64,000 bases of DNA, from the NCBI GenBank assembly GCA_963844715.1, contig CAWJPJ010000006.1, positions 896,001-960,000 of the forward strand. Reading direction: 5' to 3'. The position numbers were made by a program. Of the stretch, positions 23,601-26,600 are shown piece after piece. Numbering within the stretch: the stretch's first letter is position 1; every line of letters begins with the position of its first letter. The stretch comes from an uncultured Phycisphaerales bacterium. GTDB lineage: Bacteria > Planctomycetota > Phycisphaerae > Tepidisphaerales > Tepidisphaeraceae.

Positions 23601-26600
23601 CGTGGTGCCGGCGATTCCCAGGACGTCGCACTTTTCCATGGCGCCGGCGATTTGCGGGCCGATCTGCGGGTTGACGAATTCGACATCGTCGTGGCTAAAG
23701 ATCAGAATCTCGCCCTTGGCTCGATCGATGCCGCGGTTGTATGCCTCGCAGATGCCGGCGGCGTCGTGAATGCCAATGAATTCGATAGTCTGCCCGGCCA
23801 GGACGCGTCGATATCCGGCGGTGACGCGATCGAATTTCGCCGGGTCGATGCTGCAAATGATGATGGAAAAGAGCGGGGAGGGCTGGGTCATAAATGGCCG
23901 TCAGCTAAAGGTAATGTCCCGCCGACGGACTGCAAGCGCTCGTTCAACCGGCCGACCCGCGGTTATCGGCGACCAGATTCGCGTGATTAACCAGAAGCGT
24001 TTCGCCGGCCACGCCATTGATGTAATCCTCGATTTGCTTGATGCGGCGCCGCGCCTTGCGGATATCTCGAATGATTAACAGCCCGGCGCACGCAAATACG
24101 ACGGCGAACAGCACGACCGAGGCCAAGACCAAAATGATCCGCTGATTTGGGGCGTCGTAGAGCAACCCAACGGCGATAGGCAGGGCCACGGCGAAGATTT
24201 GCAGGCCGTTGTTTTTTCGATGGATAATTTCGGTCTGTAAGATGGTGTATTCCGCCAGAATAATGCGGATTTTCTCCTCTTGCGACATGGGGTTCTGTTC
24301 GGGCATGATGACATCAACTTTGGGCCGGCCGTCAAAAGACTAATGGAATCGCCCCAATCCCGCAAAAACGCGGCGGTTGAACGAAATGGGCGATGCCAAT
24401 ATAATGCTTGGCTCGCAAAAAGAGAGGAATCCGATGTCGCTTGATCGAAGCTTACGAGGGGCCAACTCACTGATTCGCCATCGCAACGTACTCACGCGCG
24501 CCGAGCGCCTGCTGAAGCTCACGGAAGACGAGCGCTGGGACGAGAGCAAGAGCGTATTCGGCCTTCCCAAGGTAGCGCATCGGAAACAGGAATTAGCCAA
24601 GTCGGAGAAGGAAACCCCGGACGCGGCCGCCGCGGCCGGAGCAACCCCCGCCGCCGGAGCGCCTGCCGCCGGGGCTCCTGCCGCCGCCGGAGGCAAGGAC
24701 GCGAAGGGCGCCGCGCCCGCAGCCAAAGGGGCTGCCCCCGCCGCGGGAGCCAAGGCCGCCGCGCCGGCCGCGAAGAAGAAGTAATATTCCTCGGCCCCAA
24801 AACGAACCGCCGGCATGTCGAGCATGGATCATCTCGTTTCGCGCCGCCGCCGCCGTGGATGCCTCGGGCATCCGCAAGGTGTTCGATCTGGCCGCGAAAA
24901 TGTCCGACCCGATCAACCTTTCGATCGGGCAACCCGATTTCGACGTTCCTGAATTCGCCAAGGACGCCGCGATCGAGGCCATCCGCAAGGGGAACAATCG
25001 ATATACTCAAACTCAGGGAATCGCGCCGCTTCGCGAGCGCCTGCGCAAAGATCTCTCGGCGGAATTTTCCCACGACGTCGGAGAAGTGCTCATCACCAGC
25101 GGCGTCAGCGGCGGCTTGATGCTGGCTCTCCTGGCCACCATCGACCCGGGTGATGAGGCGATTTTCCTCGATCCTTACTTCGTCATGTACAAGCATCTGC
25201 TCACTCTGGCCGGGGGGAAGCCGGTGATCGTGGACAGCTATCCCGATTTTCGCTTTCCCGCGGAGCGCGTCGAAAAGGCGATCACCTCCAAAAGCAAGCT
25301 GTTGATCCTGAACAGCCCCAGCAATCCTACCGGCGTGGCAATGAATCAGCGCGAAATCGACGACGCTGTGCGCATCGCCAAAAAACATAATCTGCTGATC
25401 GTCTCCGATGAGATTTACGAGCCGTTTCTATACGACGCGCCGCGCGGCCTGCCGAGCGCCGGGCATTCGCATGAAAACACTTTGATTCTTCGCGGATTTT
25501 CCAAGAGCCACGGCATGACCGGATGGCGACTCGGCTATGCCGCCGGCCCGTCGGAGATCATTTCGCAGATGACCAAGCTTCAGCAGTACACATTCGTCTG
25601 TGCCCCGGCGCCGTTTCAATACGGAGCACTGAAGGCGTTGGACGTCCCGATGGAGGACGCCGTGGCCGCGTATCGCCAGAAGCGCGATTTGGTCTGCCAT
25701 CGGCTGCATCGGAAATTCGAACTGGTCGTCCCCGAGGGGGCGTTCTACGTCTTTCCGAAGGCCCCGGCCGGGATGACCGGGAGCCAGTTCGTAGCCAAGG
25801 CGATCGATAACAACGTCCTGATCATTCCGGGGAACGTCTTTTCGGAGCGTGATACCCATTTCCGAATCAGCTACGCGACGACGATGGAGAAGTTGGAGGC
25901 GGGCTGCGAAATTCTTTGCAAGCTGGCCGGGTGATCTCGCGGGTGCTCAGAACTGTCAGATTCCGCGATCAATCGGATGGATTTGAAAATCCGTCCGCCA
26001 GCGCGTTAGTATGGCGTCGTGCGGGTCGAATCTACTTGTGAATAGTCCTGCTGACGCCAACCGGCAACGATCGCTCTTCGGGGCGAGGCGGCTCCGGCAG
26101 TGGCGGAACTGGCAGACGCTCTGGATTGTCAATCCAGTGATCCACAAGATCGTACGGGTTCGAATCCCGTCTCCCGGAGCTTTTTTCGTTTGACTTATGC
26201 CAAATCCGCGTCGATAACATTGTTATCTTGTGGATCACTGGATTGCAGCCCCAGATTGACACCTGGGGCTAATTTATTGGTCACGCCTGCCCTCCGCCGT
26301 CCCCATCAAGCTTACTTGTCATCCCCATCGCTCAGCACTCGATCCACGGTCGTCGTAATCGTATTGAAGCTCGTCGCCGAAACTTTCGGCTGCTGAATCG
26401 TTCCGCTGACGTGGATTCTGAGCAGTTCCTGCTTGGCCCCGTAGATCAGCGGCCCGAGGACGGGAAGGCTGACCAGCGTGGGGTTATCCGTCACAAACCA
26501 GAGGCTCACTCGCTTGGCCGCGAAATCGAGCTGGCCGTTGCCGTTCATCGTCATGTCCTTGCTCTTGAGGATGATTTGATCGAAGACGACCTGTTGGCCG

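What a model noticed while it worked through the whole genome (the two positions that open the first line are those of the whole stretch)
26093..26180. Leucine-type class II tRNA carrying an aspartate anticodon (GUC)
C6:922094-922178 (+) encodes an extra tRNA whose body is that of tRNA-Leu (Leu-type D-arm GUGGCGGAACUGGCAGACGC, long variable arm, 7/5 acceptor/T branch, discriminator A73) but whose canonical 7-nt anticodon loop (UUGUCAA) holds GUC, the anticodon for the Asp codons GAC/GAU. It coexists with a normal class I tRNA-Asp(GUC) (C6:611182) and with all five tRNA-Leu isoacceptors. Because bacterial LeuRS does not read the anticodon, it is predicted to be a natural Asp->Leu mistranslating (or otherwise non-canonical) tRNA, member of a so far undescribed family of Leu-type tRNAs with Asp/Glu/Cys anticodons in Tepidisphaeraceae and with other non-Leu anticodons in many phyla.
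Evidence so far: rna.tsv/ARAGORN call it tRNA-Asp(gtc), 88 nt, Rfam tRNA 51 bits. D-arm identical to the genome's tRNA-Leu genes, not to tRNA-Asp. Relatives: same Leu-type body with GUC, UUC (Glu) or GCA (Cys) in G011 (4 intact copies + 1 decayed), G073, G096, G129 = 5 of 141 family genomes incl. G000; pattern scan of 185,579 species genomes gave 119 loci (row limit), 114 ARAGORN tRNAs, most with non-Leu anticodons (UGG 10, UUA 9, GUC 8 ...). RNAalifold on 14 such tRNAs: full cloverleaf + variable-arm helix, 18 of 24 pairs with compensatory double changes, A73 14/14, D-arm invariant. Short contigs (151-483 nt, one with a Nextera-type adaptor tail) of two public soil-metagenome runs of one study match the gen [...]
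(Added by a program. Inside this text positions count along the whole contig: contig position 896,001 is position 1 of the stretch shown here. "Call 12" and the like, gene names such as g00115 and contig names such as C1 are that model's own, and its searches are not shown. The text may have been shortened before it was handed on; [...] marks where a part breaks off. The agent that wrote the report below was given it as the finding of a first reader that could run no searches.)

Follow-up and report, generated by a model that had tools for sequence, protein, structure and literature searches.

The report
Missense tRNA guarded by antisense RNA
A leucine-type tRNA that reads aspartate codons lies next to a small RNA gene built to bind that same tRNA, and the same pairing recurs with matching sequence changes in other soil bacteria, which points to a switchable, possibly toxin-antitoxin-like, mistranslation device that I could not find described.

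Summary
Window 26094-26178 (+) is a well-formed class II tRNA with a Leu-type D-arm, A73 and anticodon GUC.

Directly downstream lie a T-run, a sigma70-like promoter (TTGACT-17-GATAAC) and a ~54-nt terminator-ended RNA (26225-26278). Its first 21 nt are perfectly complementary to the tRNA's anticodon-loop 3' end, 3' anticodon stem and variable arm. Its terminator loop (UUGACA) complements the anticodon loop.

This tRNA plus anti-tRNA layout recurs in 24 of 59 Leu-type tRNAs with non-Leu anticodons (Planctomycetota, Gemmatimonadota). It occurs in 0 of 91 Leu-type tRNAs with Leu anticodons. The paired sequences differ between loci and covary: 91% of cells are paired, against 29-47% in shifted controls.

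The module is a protein-free 377-bp intergenic insert that is missing in two sister genomes. It is patchy and often multi-copy.

Best reading: an anticodon-blind LeuRS charges the tRNA, which would put Leu at abundant Asp codons. The cognate sRNA keeps it silent, which makes this an RNA-only, toxin-antitoxin-like gated mistranslation module.

Expression, charging and toxicity are untested. The window's copy is the only one of 24 with an acceptor-stem mismatch. No description turned up in eight literature searches.

The parts
25983..26012 (+). sigma70-like promoter candidate for the tRNA (TTGAAA-18-TAGTAT), about 80 nt upstream of the tRNA
   Evidence: Consensus scan, 9 of 12 matches, 1 found against 0.3 expected in shuffles. 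Not conserved in relatives, so this part is weak.
26094..26178 (+). Class II, Leu-type tRNA with anticodon GUC (26128-26130), A73 (26178) and a C5.C68 mismatch
   Evidence: ARAGORN; Rfam 51 bits; D-arm 19 of 20 identical to the genome's tRNA-Leu; family cloverleaf covariation.
26130..26150 (+). Target site inside the tRNA: C36-A37-A38, the 3' strand of the anticodon stem, and the 5' strand, loop and first 3'-strand bases of the variable arm
   Evidence: 21-nt, 100% complementary inverted repeat with 26225-26245. It is the only such site in the 4.55-Mb genome.
26181..26186 (+). T6 run two bases after A73. It may end tRNA transcription and/or act as an A/T-rich upstream element of the next promoter.
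   Evidence: Sequence. A T-run is present at this place in all 6 Planctomycetota class A relatives aligned. Its role is inferred.
26190..26218 (+). sigma70-like promoter of the anti-tRNA RNA: -35 TTGACT (26190-26195), 17-nt spacer, -10 GATAAC (26213-26218)
   Evidence: Positional promoter search: 9 of 12 matches in the window's copy. 16 of 24 modules score at least 8 of 12 at the right place against 6% of shuffles, and TTGAC[T/A/C] is present in 14 of 24. Alignments.
26225..26278 (+). Predicted ~54-nt anti-tRNA small RNA: 5' seed, terminator hairpin, U-rich tail
   Evidence: Starts 6 nt after the -10 box. Terminator-like site at 26247-26270 plus AATTTATT. Predicted fold -18.9 kcal/mol. No Rfam family matches.
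26225..26245 (+). Seed: 21 nt perfectly antisense to tRNA 26130-26150
   Evidence: Cognate against non-cognate complement scores. Covariation tables.
26255..26262 (+). Terminator-hairpin loop AUUGACAC. UUGACA (26256-26261) is complementary to anticodon-loop bases U33-A38 and is a candidate kissing loop that displays the GAC codon.
   Evidence: 6 of 7 complement in the window's copy. It is 7 of 7 in L001, L004, L010, L048 and L289, 6 of 7 in L011 and 5 of 7 in L030, always in the predicted loop.

Best explanation
The finding is one half of a self-contained, protein-free two-RNA module of about 377 bp (25935-26311).

Gene 1 is a tRNA with a tRNA-Leu body (Leu D-arm, long variable arm, A73) and the aspartate anticodon GUC. 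Bacterial LeuRS recognises A73 and the D-arm/tertiary core and not the anticodon (established knowledge, recalled). The tRNA is therefore expected to be charged with leucine and to insert Leu at GAC/GAU, which make up 58 of every 1000 codons in this genome.

Gene 2 starts about 45 nt downstream from its own TTGACT-17-GATAAC promoter. It is a ~54-nt small RNA made to bind exactly this tRNA. Its terminator-hairpin loop is complementary to the anticodon loop, which would allow a fast kissing contact that masks the anticodon. Its 21-nt 5' seed is complementary to the 3' anticodon stem and the variable arm, which serve as a private 'address' that housekeeping tRNA-Leu lacks.

Binding is inferred to block decoding, to unfold the tRNA, and probably to expose a long duplex to RNase III. 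The module would then work like an RNA-only toxin-antitoxin pair: a very stable, harmful tRNA held in check by a presumably short-lived antisense RNA. If sRNA synthesis stops (loss of the locus, transcription shut-off by phage, or stress), the tRNA is released and the proteome is mistranslated.

Shown here: the anatomy, the complementarity, its covariation across 24 loci, and its restriction to non-Leu anticodons. Inferred: transcription of both RNAs, Leu charging, repression by the sRNA, toxicity and the biological role.

Layered confidence: a co-evolving tRNA/anti-tRNA pair about 0.9; the sRNA antagonises the tRNA about 0.7; Leu charging and missense decoding about 0.55; a TA-like, abortive-infection or addiction role about 0.4. 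The single figure given for this explanation (0.55) is for the mechanism as a whole: a Leu-charged missense tRNA gated by its cognate sRNA.
For: (1) In the window, a 21-nt perfect complement joins tRNA 26130-26150 and 26225-26245, with a promoter-like site in front of the second arm and a terminator-like site behind it on the + strand. The seed's only match in the genome is the tRNA. In-silico cofolding favours the heterodimer: -68.8 against -27.3 plus -18.9 kcal/mol.

(2) Recurrence and specificity. In the de-duplicated set, 23 of 59 Leu-type tRNAs with non-Leu anticodons (24 at score >=11) carry a downstream complement of score >=11.5 at 30-75 nt. The figure is 0 of 10 for Leu anticodons, and 2 of 59 in the upstream control. 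In an anticodon-blind metagenome scan that required the T-run and TTGAC, 0 of 81 Leu-anticodon tRNAs had the complement, and the single non-Leu tRNA (GUC) had it.

(3) Cognate specificity. Cognate complement scores are 11-22 (mean 16.6) and non-cognate scores average 7.9. Only 6 of 210 non-cognate pairs reach 12, all among closely related Ala-CGC copies.

(4) Covariation. 91% of cells are paired in both target classes against 29-47% after shifting the register by 1-3. 15 of 19 and 16 of 19 positions show double-sided changes. 0 of 1000 partner shuffles reach the observed pairing.

(5) Non-Watson-Crick cells are G.U 24 times and A.C 8 times on the + strand (counted). This fits RNA-RNA pairing of two + strand transcripts.

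(6) Kissing loop. In 8 class A modules the terminator loop complements the cognate anticodon loop at 5-7 of 7 positions and changes with it: GUGAAAA, GUGAAAG, AUGACAG, UUGACGG, UUGACA. In class B the seed itself covers the anticodon, with 16 of 16 Watson-Crick pairs at each of positions 34-37.

(7) The tRNAs are maintained as tRNAs. A73 is present in 24 of 24 and the acceptor stem is fully paired in 23 of 24. 20 of 24 cloverleaf pairs show compensatory changes in 21 sequences.

(8) Selfish-element-like distribution. The module is absent at the same convergent-gene junction in both same-genus genomes. G138 has the two genes about 33 bp apart and G137 has a different 1.28-kb insert. The pattern was found in 9 of 141 family genomes, 5 of 401 phylum-sample genomes including G000, and 5 of 81 genomes of a Gemmatimonad family. 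Several genomes carry 2-4 copies. No neighbouring protein is conserved among 34 flanking ORFs.

(9) Module anticodons mostly read abundant high-GC codons. The counts are CGC 11, GUC 4, UUC 2, GCG 2, and GGC, GUG, CUC, CGG and AGC once each. In G000, GCC, GCG, GAC and CGC rank 1, 2, 6 and 7.

(10) Precedent. Missense allo-tRNAs expressed in E. coli caused growth arrest and death, and allo-tRNA genes lie near TA systems (PMC5389517, passages read).
Against: There is no expression evidence. All 5 public runs that hold the locus are DNA runs. Aminoacylation, toxicity and sRNA binding are untested.

The window's own copy is the most deviant of 24. It is the only one with an acceptor-stem mismatch (C5.C68) and the only one with C1-G72. 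Its -10 box, GATAAC, lacks the usual final T. It may therefore be attenuated or decaying.

35 of 59 Leu-type tRNAs with non-Leu anticodons have no downstream antisense. These include GUC copies that ARAGORN calls as tRNAs (L078, L138). No convincing trans-encoded antisense was seen in G294. A free missense tRNA may therefore be tolerated or be controlled in some other way.

Mature tRNAs are tightly folded and modified, so antisense invasion may be inefficient. AspRS reads G34, U35 and C36 and might charge some Asp.

Module calling and the pairing register were both defined by complementarity, with G.U allowed. The pair tables and the G.U excess are therefore partly circular. The independent support comes from the upstream, Leu-anticodon, shifted-register and shuffle controls.

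Confidence: 0.55

Rival explanations
1. The region is a single transcript. The downstream complement is part of the pre-tRNA 3' trailer and folds back in cis on the anticodon/variable arm, so that maturation or folding of the tRNA is delayed or made conditional. There is no separate small RNA.
For: The two elements lie 45 nt apart on the same strand. In the Planctomycetota f76 subfamily a further 9-nt box complementary to the anticodon loop lies immediately after the tRNA. In Gemmatimonadota copies, leader and trailer carry complementary GTGCCAG/CTGGCAT. No RNA data exist to separate the two models.
Against: A -35/-10 pair sits at a fixed distance in front of the complement in 16 of 24 modules, against 6% of shuffles. 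A T-run follows the tRNA in class A. The complement begins 4-8 nt after the -10 box in most modules and is followed by its own terminator.
Confidence: 0.15
2. One reading: a free-standing, constitutively active Asp->Leu mistranslating tRNA that adds proteome diversity, with no dedicated control.
For: The Leu-type body with GUC is real. 35 of 59 similar tRNAs elsewhere have no antisense partner.
Against: This copy and 23 others carry a co-evolving antisense partner aimed at the anticodon region. That is hard to explain if the tRNA is meant to act freely.
Confidence: 0.05
3. The tRNA-like RNA does not decode. It could be a partner or sponge for the small RNA, an amino-acid donor for a non-ribosomal reaction, or an uncharged A-site ligand that triggers the stringent response. 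The pairing would then regulate that activity.
For: Charging and decoding are untested. Mukai et al. found allo-tRNA species that appear not to be used in translation (PMC5389517, passages). The window's copy has a weakened acceptor stem.
Against: The anticodon loops are canonical 7-nt loops. The anticodon is exactly what the sRNA masks, in both classes. The anticodons are not random and mostly read abundant codons. No anabolic or other protein partner is conserved nearby. Acceptor stems and A73 are strictly kept.
Confidence: 0.12
4. In this genome the module is a decaying relic: an inactivated tRNA whose partner persists.
For: It is the only one of 24 copies with an acceptor mismatch and with C1-G72. 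G011 holds a copy (L010) whose 5' acceptor strand is destroyed while its antisense RNA and kissing loop persist.
Against: The seed is 21 of 21 perfect, the loop is 6 of 7, and the promoter and terminator are intact. Rfam scores the tRNA at 51 bits. Four metagenome runs show the same sequence with no variant. One C.C mismatch in a 7-bp GC-rich stem need not abolish function.
Confidence: 0.2
5. The inverted repeat acts at the DNA level, for example as a recombination or inversion site or as a by-product of template switching, and has no RNA function.
For: In DNA terms it is an inverted repeat that overlaps a tRNA gene, and tRNA genes are common recombination targets.
Against: Homologous modules keep complementarity through different sequences. 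G.U outnumbers A.C 24 to 8 on one strand. A promoter and a terminator frame the second arm. A separate loop-loop complement to the anticodon loop covaries as well. No recombinase is nearby.
Confidence: 0.03

Closest known systems
allo-tRNAs (Mukai et al. 2017, NAR, PMC5389517; passages read)
   Same: They are natural bacterial class II tRNAs, mainly from soil and Acidobacteria, whose identity belongs to an anticodon-blind synthetase and whose anticodons are 'wrong'. GUC and GCG are among the predominant ones. They are toxic when expressed in E. coli and are found near toxin-antitoxin systems.
   Different: allo-tRNAs have Ser identity and an 8/4 or 9/3 acceptor/T architecture. The tRNA here has a Leu-type D-arm, A73 and a 7/5 architecture. 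The word 'antisense' does not occur in that paper, so no dedicated anti-tRNA RNA is described there.
Type I and type VIII toxin-antitoxin systems (antisense RNA antitoxins; RNA toxin plus RNA antitoxin such as SdsR/RyeA or CreT/CreA). Recalled, not read here.
   Same: A cis-encoded small antisense RNA with its own strong promoter neutralises a harmful RNA made next to it. Distribution is patchy and multi-copy. The asymmetry of a stable toxin and a labile antitoxin is plausible.
   Different: The 'toxin' would be a tRNA, not an mRNA for a small peptide or an RNA that sequesters other molecules. No ORF is involved: the overlapping mechanical ORFs have no Pfam match. The two genes lie in tandem, not overlapping on opposite strands. 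Toxicity and rescue are untested.
Antisense-RNA kissing complexes of plasmids (CopA/CopT, RNA I/RNA II, Sok/hok) and the T-box specifier-anticodon contact. Recalled.
   Same: A hairpin loop complementary to a target loop sits next to a single-stranded stretch that can extend the helix. As in a T-box, a codon-like triplet in an RNA loop reads a tRNA anticodon.
   Different: No antiterminator or acceptor-end contact is present.
Other natural mistranslating tRNAs: bacterial dual-identity tRNA-Pro variants (section heading seen in PMC11415595) and nematode nev-tRNAs with a Leu body and Gly/Ile anticodons (recalled).
   Same: Identity elements for one amino acid are combined with an anticodon for another. 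nev-tRNAs use the same anticodon blindness of LeuRS.
   Different: None of them is reported with a cognate antisense RNA. The 2024 review contains neither 'antisense' nor 'toxin'.
3'ETS-leuZ, a sponge for sRNAs in a tRNA precursor. Recalled.
   Same: A tRNA transcription unit and small RNAs interact by base pairing.
   Different: In that case the spacer titrates sRNAs that regulate mRNAs. Here the mature body of the tRNA, including its anticodon, is the paired site.

Membership tests
tRNA (Rfam RF00005) | Cloverleaf covariance-model score above the gathering threshold | tested here: met
   51.0 bits against 29, full-length model match 1-71. ARAGORN also calls it.
Bacterial tRNA-Leu (identity set for LeuRS) | Discriminator A73 | tested here: met
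   A at 26178. A73 is present in 24 of 24 module tRNAs.
Bacterial tRNA-Leu (identity set for LeuRS) | Leu-type D-arm and D-loop (3-bp D stem, placement of G18G19) and a long variable arm | tested here: met
   The D-arm matches the genome's own Leu tRNAs at 19 of 20 positions, and the tRNA is closest overall to Leu (55-64%) compared with Ser and Tyr (40-50%). The variable-arm helix is predicted with covariation.
Bacterial tRNA-Leu (isoacceptor) | Anticodon NAG or YAA | tested here: not met
   The anticodon is GUC.
Bacterial tRNA-Leu (identity set for LeuRS) | Aminoacylation with leucine | not testable with these tools
   Needs an in-vitro charging assay or tRNA-seq with acylation readout.
Bacterial tRNA-Asp | Class I body, G73 and C38 in addition to G34-U35-C36 (identity set recalled from the E. 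coli literature) | tested here: not met
   The tRNA has a class II body, A73 and A38. Only the anticodon fits. The genome's real tRNA-Asp is a 75-nt class I tRNA.
allo-tRNA | 8/4 or 9/3 acceptor/T-stem architecture with Ser (or related) identity | tested here: not met
   7-bp acceptor stem and 5-bp T stem in the Rfam alignment and in RNAalifold. The D-arm is Leu-type and the discriminator is A73.
Toxin-antitoxin system with RNA antitoxin (type I / type VIII-like) | An antitoxin RNA complementary to the toxin RNA, encoded next to it with its own promoter | tested here: met
   Complementarity, promoter-like and terminator-like sites, and covariation across 24 loci. This is in silico only; transcription is not shown.
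Toxin-antitoxin system with RNA antitoxin (type I / type VIII-like) | The toxin arrests growth and the antitoxin rescues it | not testable with these tools
   Needs expression of the tRNA with and without the sRNA in a host.
Intrinsically terminated bacterial sRNA | GC-rich hairpin followed by a U-run at the 3' end | tested here: met
   8-bp stem with 6 GC pairs at 26247-26270, then AATTTATT. Stronger T-runs are present in relatives.

The most novel reading that the evidence does not exclude
This would be a new class of RNA-only toxin-antitoxin or abortive-infection module. The toxin is a leucine-charged missense tRNA that reads one of the host's commonest codons. The antitoxin is a cis-encoded 'anti-tRNA' small RNA that recognises its own tRNA in two ways: by an anticodon-loop kissing contact, and by a private barcode in the variable arm (class A) or the anticodon stem (class B). 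The module has spread patchily, often in several orthogonal copies per genome, through Planctomycetota, Gemmatimonadota and some (pro)viral contigs. Class II tRNA-Leu would have been recruited because LeuRS ignores both the anticodon and the variable arm.
Probability: 0.4. Interest if true: 0.95.

Novelty: categorically new. Interest (0 to 1): 0.88.

Why it matters
No natural system is known to me, or was found in eight full-text searches, in which a tRNA is the specific target of a dedicated, co-evolving antisense RNA.

If the model holds, it adds several things:
- a new kind of toxin, a mistranslating tRNA, and a new antitoxin mechanism, masking of the anticodon;
- an explanation for how bacteria can carry otherwise lethal missense tRNAs;
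- a concrete, testable answer to the open question of what 'wrong-anticodon' tRNAs in soil bacteria, including allo-tRNAs, are for;
- ready-made orthogonal tRNA/anti-tRNA pairs for switchable codon reassignment in synthetic biology.

Even if the toxin-antitoxin reading fails, the covarying tRNA-sRNA pairing is a new regulatory principle for tRNA.

Tried and rejected
- RNA evidence: no RNA holder was listed among the 5 runs found. The four runs laid are DNA contigs and say nothing about expression.
- RNAduplex energies over whole RNAs separated cognate from non-cognate pairs poorly: -68 against -50 kcal/mol, with upstream controls reaching -74. I replaced this measure with the longest ungapped complement.
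- Rfam at a permissive E-value found nothing but the tRNA in 25900-26330. The Streptomyces-metK hit, at 16.5 bits against a gathering score of 44.2, is noise.
- Mechanical ORFs that overlap the module (60-98 aa) have no Pfam family. The whole intergenic stretch is missing in G138. I do not treat these ORFs as genes.
- I looked for a conserved protein partner among 34 flanking ORFs of 13 module loci and found none. Neighbours range from topoisomerase I to kinases, and one locus (L152) lies beside a Phd/YefM antitoxin gene.
- I looked for a trans-encoded antisense RNA for a module-less GUC tRNA (L138) in G294. The search returned only other tRNA-like hits and chance 14-15-mers, so it is inconclusive.
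- A search for further class A copies in G011, G129, G073 and G096 by T-arm, T-run and TTGAC returned only the loci already known, plus one ordinary tRNA-Gly.
- The TTGACT box could have been read as an antisense copy of the GUC anticodon loop, because TTGACA is its exact complement. I rejected this as the general explanation because the same box occurs in Glu, Ala, Arg and His modules.
- Two scripts failed or mis-indexed the acceptor stem. The corrected result is.
- Literature searches that found no description of such a module. The allo-tRNA search is.

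
Full report
THE OBSERVATION

The tRNA is real and is as described. ARAGORN calls tRNA-Asp(gtc) at 26093-26180. 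Rfam's tRNA model matches 26094-26178 over its full length at 51.0 bits, against a gathering score of 29.

From the sequence the acceptor stem is C1-G72, C2-G71, G3-C70, G4-C69, C5.C68 (mismatch), A6-U67, G7-C66. The discriminator is A73 (26178). The anticodon loop is UUGUCAA with GUC at 26128-26130. There is a 16-nt variable region and a 5-bp T stem.

CCA is not encoded. That is normal here: only about 11 of the genome's 74 tRNA genes have CCA near their 3' end.

The D-arm differs at one D-loop base from the genome's tRNA-Leu genes (19 of 20). Overall identity is 55-64% to the five Leu tRNAs and 40-50% to Ser and Tyr tRNAs. A class I tRNA-Asp(GUC) and all five Leu isoacceptors coexist with it. 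Contigs of four public soil-metagenome DNA runs cover the locus without a single difference.

The tRNA segment 26130-26150 covers C36-A37-A38, the 3' strand of the anticodon stem, and the 5' strand, loop and first 3'-strand bases of the variable arm. It has a perfect 21-nt reverse complement at 26225-26245.

Between the two arms lie, in order:
- a T6 run (26181-26186);
- TTGACT (26190-26195);
- a 17-nt spacer;
- GATAAC (26213-26218).

The complement starts 6 nt after that -10-like box. It is followed by a terminator-like hairpin (26247-26270) and AATTTATT.

The region therefore reads as a second gene on the same strand: a ~54-nt small RNA (26225-26278) whose 5' end is antisense to the tRNA. 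The 8-nt loop of its terminator hairpin, AUUGACAC, contains UUGACA, the complement of anticodon-loop bases U33-A38.

The seed has no other match in the 4.55-Mb genome. In silico the heterodimer is favoured: -68.8 kcal/mol against -27.3 plus -18.9 for the separate folds. That calculation uses unmodified RNAs and ignores tertiary structure.

THE LAYOUT IS CONSERVED AND THE PAIRING COVARIES

I collected loci with a pattern for the Leu D-arm followed by an anticodon whose middle base is not A. The sources were:
- the family (141 genomes);
- a phylum sample (401 genomes including G000);
- a Gemmatimonad family sample (81 genomes);
- three genomes reached through loci;

After de-duplication there were 150 D-arm sites and 69 ARAGORN tRNAs. 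Of the 59 with non-Leu anticodons, 23 (24 at a score of at least 11) have an ungapped complement of score at least 11.5 to their own tRNA, beginning 30-75 nt downstream. None of the 10 with Leu anticodons has one. In the upstream control, 2 of 59 reach that score.

A second, anticodon-blind control came from the metagenome scan, which required the D-arm, a T-run and TTGAC. Of 82 tRNAs, 81 had Leu anticodons, and 0 of those had a downstream complement. The single non-Leu tRNA (GUC, L289) had an 18-nt one.

The complements are specific for the cognate tRNA. Cognate scores are 11-22 (mean 16.6) and non-cognate scores average 7.9. Only 6 of 210 non-cognate pairs reach 12, all among closely related Ala-CGC copies.

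TWO TARGET CLASSES

Class A comprises the window's copy, L001, L004, L011, L030 and L048 from Planctomycetota, and L087 and L123 from Gemmatimonadota. The sRNA seed pairs with positions ~36-62, which are the anticodon-loop 3' end, the 3' anticodon stem and the variable arm.

Class B comprises 16 copies, mostly Gemmatimonadota, plus L136, L137 and L140 from Planctomycetota. The seed covers the whole anticodon arm, positions ~22-44.

| Measure | Class A (8 copies) | Class B (16 copies) |
|---|---|---|
| Cells forming pairs | 91% | 91% |
| Same, register shifted by 1-3 | 36-41% | 29-47% |
| Positions with double-sided changes | 16 of 19 | 15 of 19 |
| Partner shuffles reaching the observed pairing | 0 of 1000 | 0 of 1000 |

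Among non-Watson-Crick cells, G.U occurs 24 times and A.C 8 times when read on the + strand (counted). This fits pairing between two + strand RNAs.

There is a caveat. The modules and their registers were chosen by complementarity, with G.U tolerated. These tables are therefore partly circular. The independent weight lies in the upstream, Leu-anticodon, shifted-register and shuffle controls.

A SECOND, INDEPENDENT CONTACT

In the Planctomycetota-type class A modules, the loop of the sRNA's terminator hairpin is complementary to the cognate anticodon loop and changes with it.

| Locus | sRNA terminator loop | tRNA anticodon loop | Complementary positions |
|---|---|---|---|
| L001, L004 | GUGAAAA | UUUUCAC | 7 of 7 |
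| L010 | GUGAAAG | CUUUCAC | 7 of 7 |
| L048 | AUGACAG | CUGUCAU | 7 of 7 |
| L289 | UUGACGG | CCGUCAA | 7 of 7 |
| Window copy, L011 | (contains UUGACA / UGACAA) | UUGUCAA | 6 of 7 |
| L030 | (contains UGACA) | UUGUCAG | 5 of 7 |

The complementary bases are always unpaired in the predicted fold. L010 is a decayed copy. In class B the seed itself carries the codon: positions 34-37 are Watson-Crick in 16 of 16 copies.

PROMOTER

A -35/-10 pair with 16-18 nt spacing, ending 3-13 nt before the complement, scores at least 8 of 12 in 16 of 24 modules against 6% of shuffles. It scores at least 9 in 33% of modules against 1.3% of shuffles. TTGAC[T/A/C] is the -35 box in 14 of 24 (alignments).

THE tRNAs ARE MAINTAINED

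All 24 have A73, and 23 of 24 have a fully paired acceptor stem. The exception is the window's copy, which is also the only one with C1-G72. RNAalifold on the 21 module tRNAs that do not come from the unpublished genome gives the full cloverleaf plus a variable-arm helix, with 20 of 24 pairs showing compensatory double changes.

CONTEXT

The module fills the 377-bp gap between two convergent genes. One is a class I/II aminotransferase (24855-25934, +). The other is an unannotated 264-aa ORF (26312-27106, -).

In same-genus genome G138 the two genes lie about 33 bp apart with nothing between them. In G137 the gap holds an unrelated 1.28-kb insert with a 195-aa ORF and no tRNA.

The pattern was found in 9 of 141 family genomes, of which 4 including G000 carry Leu-type tRNAs with non-Leu anticodons of the class A/Cys type. 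It was found in 5 of 401 genomes of the phylum sample including G000 and in 5 of 81 genomes of the Gemmatimonad family sample.

Copies per genome reach 2-4: G011 has 3, G475 has 2, G541 has 2, G622 has 2 and G542 has 4. G542 was flagged as unpublished. Resting on it are the '4 copies' statement and loci L049, L066, L141, L144, L146 and L147, of which 3 are among the 24 modules.

The 34 flanking ORFs of 13 module loci share no family. In viral contigs the pattern is frequent (at least 113 loci, 32 ARAGORN tRNAs, mostly Gln, Asn, Gly and His anticodons), but only 2 carry the module. One of them, L241 with Gly GCC, has the class A layout.

MECHANISM

These points are established from the literature and recalled here. 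Bacterial LeuRS uses A73 and the D-arm/tertiary core, and neither the anticodon nor the variable arm. Missense suppressor tRNAs are toxic. Passages read in PMC5389517 report growth arrest and death in E. coli. The listing for PMC6125640 reports lethal tRNA-Ser anticodon variants in yeast.

The rest is inferred. The tRNA is charged with Leu and would read GAC/GAU, which make up 58 of every 1000 codons in G000. Module anticodons elsewhere are CGC 11, GUC 4, UUC 2, GCG 2, and GGC, GUG, CUC, CGG and AGC once each. They mostly read very common codons: GCC, GCG, GAC and CGC rank 1, 2, 6 and 7 in G000.

The sRNA would mask the anticodon by loop-loop kissing, zip up along the variable arm or anticodon stem, and so inactivate the tRNA and probably mark it for destruction. 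A tRNA is long-lived and a small antisense RNA usually is not. The pair therefore has the asymmetry needed for a toxin-antitoxin, addiction or abortive-infection device. A gated 'adaptive mistranslation' switch is the milder version of the same mechanism.

The existence of a dedicated silencer also argues against the idea that AspRS simply charges the tRNA with Asp, because a redundant tRNA-Asp would need no antidote. Ala-anticodon modules lack G3.U70, so they are not Ala-identity tRNAs either.

AGAINST

- Nothing is known about expression. No RNA run holds the locus.
- Charging, binding and toxicity are untested.
- The window's copy has the family's only acceptor-stem defect and a -10 box without the final T.
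- 35 of 59 non-Leu-anticodon Leu-type tRNAs lack the partner, including GUC copies that ARAGORN calls as tRNAs (L078, L138). No convincing trans-encoded antisense turned up in G294.

COMPARISON WITH WHAT IS KNOWN

The closest tRNAs are the allo-tRNAs of Mukai et al. They are Ser-type with 8/4 or 9/3 architecture, their predominant anticodons are UAU, GCG and GUC, they are toxic, and they lie near TA loci. This tRNA fails their defining architecture and identity, and that paper does not mention antisense RNAs.

A 2024 review of mistranslating tRNAs contains neither 'antisense' nor 'toxin' and lists no bacterial Leu-type case in the passages found.

Eight full-text searches returned no description of a tRNA with a dedicated antisense RNA. 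The library lacks most subscription journals, so this is absence in what was searched, not proof of absence.

In how it works, the module resembles type I and type VIII toxin-antitoxin systems and the kissing-loop antisense controls of plasmids. It is not a member of any described family.

VERDICT

The finding is the visible half of a conserved, co-evolving tRNA/anti-tRNA module that appears to be undescribed.

Noticed in passing
window 56626-60065: A dense same-strand tRNA array. ARAGORN genes and Rfam adds two (56888-56959, 57051-57122). The array includes a second tRNA-Asp(GUC) at 58310-58385, a 74-nt class I-sized 'tRNA-Leu(CAG)' without a long variable arm at 57708-57781, and a tRNA with a 2-nt anticodon call at 59449-59521. 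It looks like the long tRNA arrays of mobile or cryptic operons. For PMC8421152 only the search listing was seen.
   Followed up: no
L005:1480-1800 and L006:1480-1800: tRNA-Leu(UAA)-like genes are interrupted inside the anticodon loop by a few hundred bases, and the 3' half resumes downstream. This resembles the classical group I intron of tRNA-Leu(UAA). L005 and L006 are among the pattern hits that ARAGORN did not call, which suggests how some of the others arise. Read from the sequence only.
   Followed up: no
L139 (G325:C221:56731-59760): A Leu-type class II tRNA with anticodon CUA, a potential natural amber suppressor. It has no downstream antisense.
   Followed up: no
L136, L137, L140 (first ~20 nt after the tRNA): In this Planctomycetota subfamily a 9-nt box (CTTGAGAAG, CTTGCGAAG or CTTGCGAGG) complementary to the cognate anticodon loop lies directly after the tRNA. 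It overlaps the -35-like position and partly covaries with the loop. It is a second anti-anticodon copy besides the 17-19-nt seed.
   Followed up: partly
L041, L049, L066, L070, L096 (about 70 nt upstream of the tRNA): The Gemmatimonadales Ala-CGC/GGC modules share a conserved leader (CCAGCGGCA...GTTGTGAA...CGCGTCGCAGCAACC...GAGTGCCAGA). They also share a leader/trailer complement, GTGCCAG/CTGGCAT, that brackets the tRNA. Its function is unknown. L049 and L066 lie in the genome flagged as unpublished.
   Followed up: no
L153-L265 (viral contigs): Leu-type D-arm tRNAs with non-Leu anticodons are common in viral contigs. There are 32 ARAGORN calls: Gln UUG 7, Asn GUU 5, Gly GCC 4, His GUG 4, and others. 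Only 2 of them (L171, L241) have an antisense partner.
   Followed up: partly
L013, L026, L031, L078 (downstream of the tRNA): Leu-type tRNAs without a module (Ala UGC, Gly UCC, Pro UGG, Asp GUC) in Acidobacteriota, Reyranella and Vicinamibacterales are each followed closely by a short ORF on the same strand. A possible alternative partner was not examined.
   Followed up: no
L133:2373-3650 (G137): At the same convergent-gene junction where G000 holds the module, the sister genome G137 carries an unrelated 1.28-kb insert with a 195-aa ORF that begins with a signal-peptide-like, Cys-containing stretch. This junction seems to be an insertion hot spot.
   Followed up: partly
L002 (G043:C215:4356-6982): An 82-nt gene close to the G000 tRNA-Leu(UAG) sequence but with anticodon UUG (Gln) and a mismatch in the anticodon stem. 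It could be a point-mutated Leu tRNA or an assembly error. It has no antisense partner.
   Followed up: no
G000:C8:348543-348635: ARAGORN calls a 93-nt 'tRNA-Gly(gcc)' that shares only 33 of 95 aligned positions with the Leu-type tRNA and lacks tRNA-like D and T arms. It is probably a false positive.
   Followed up: no
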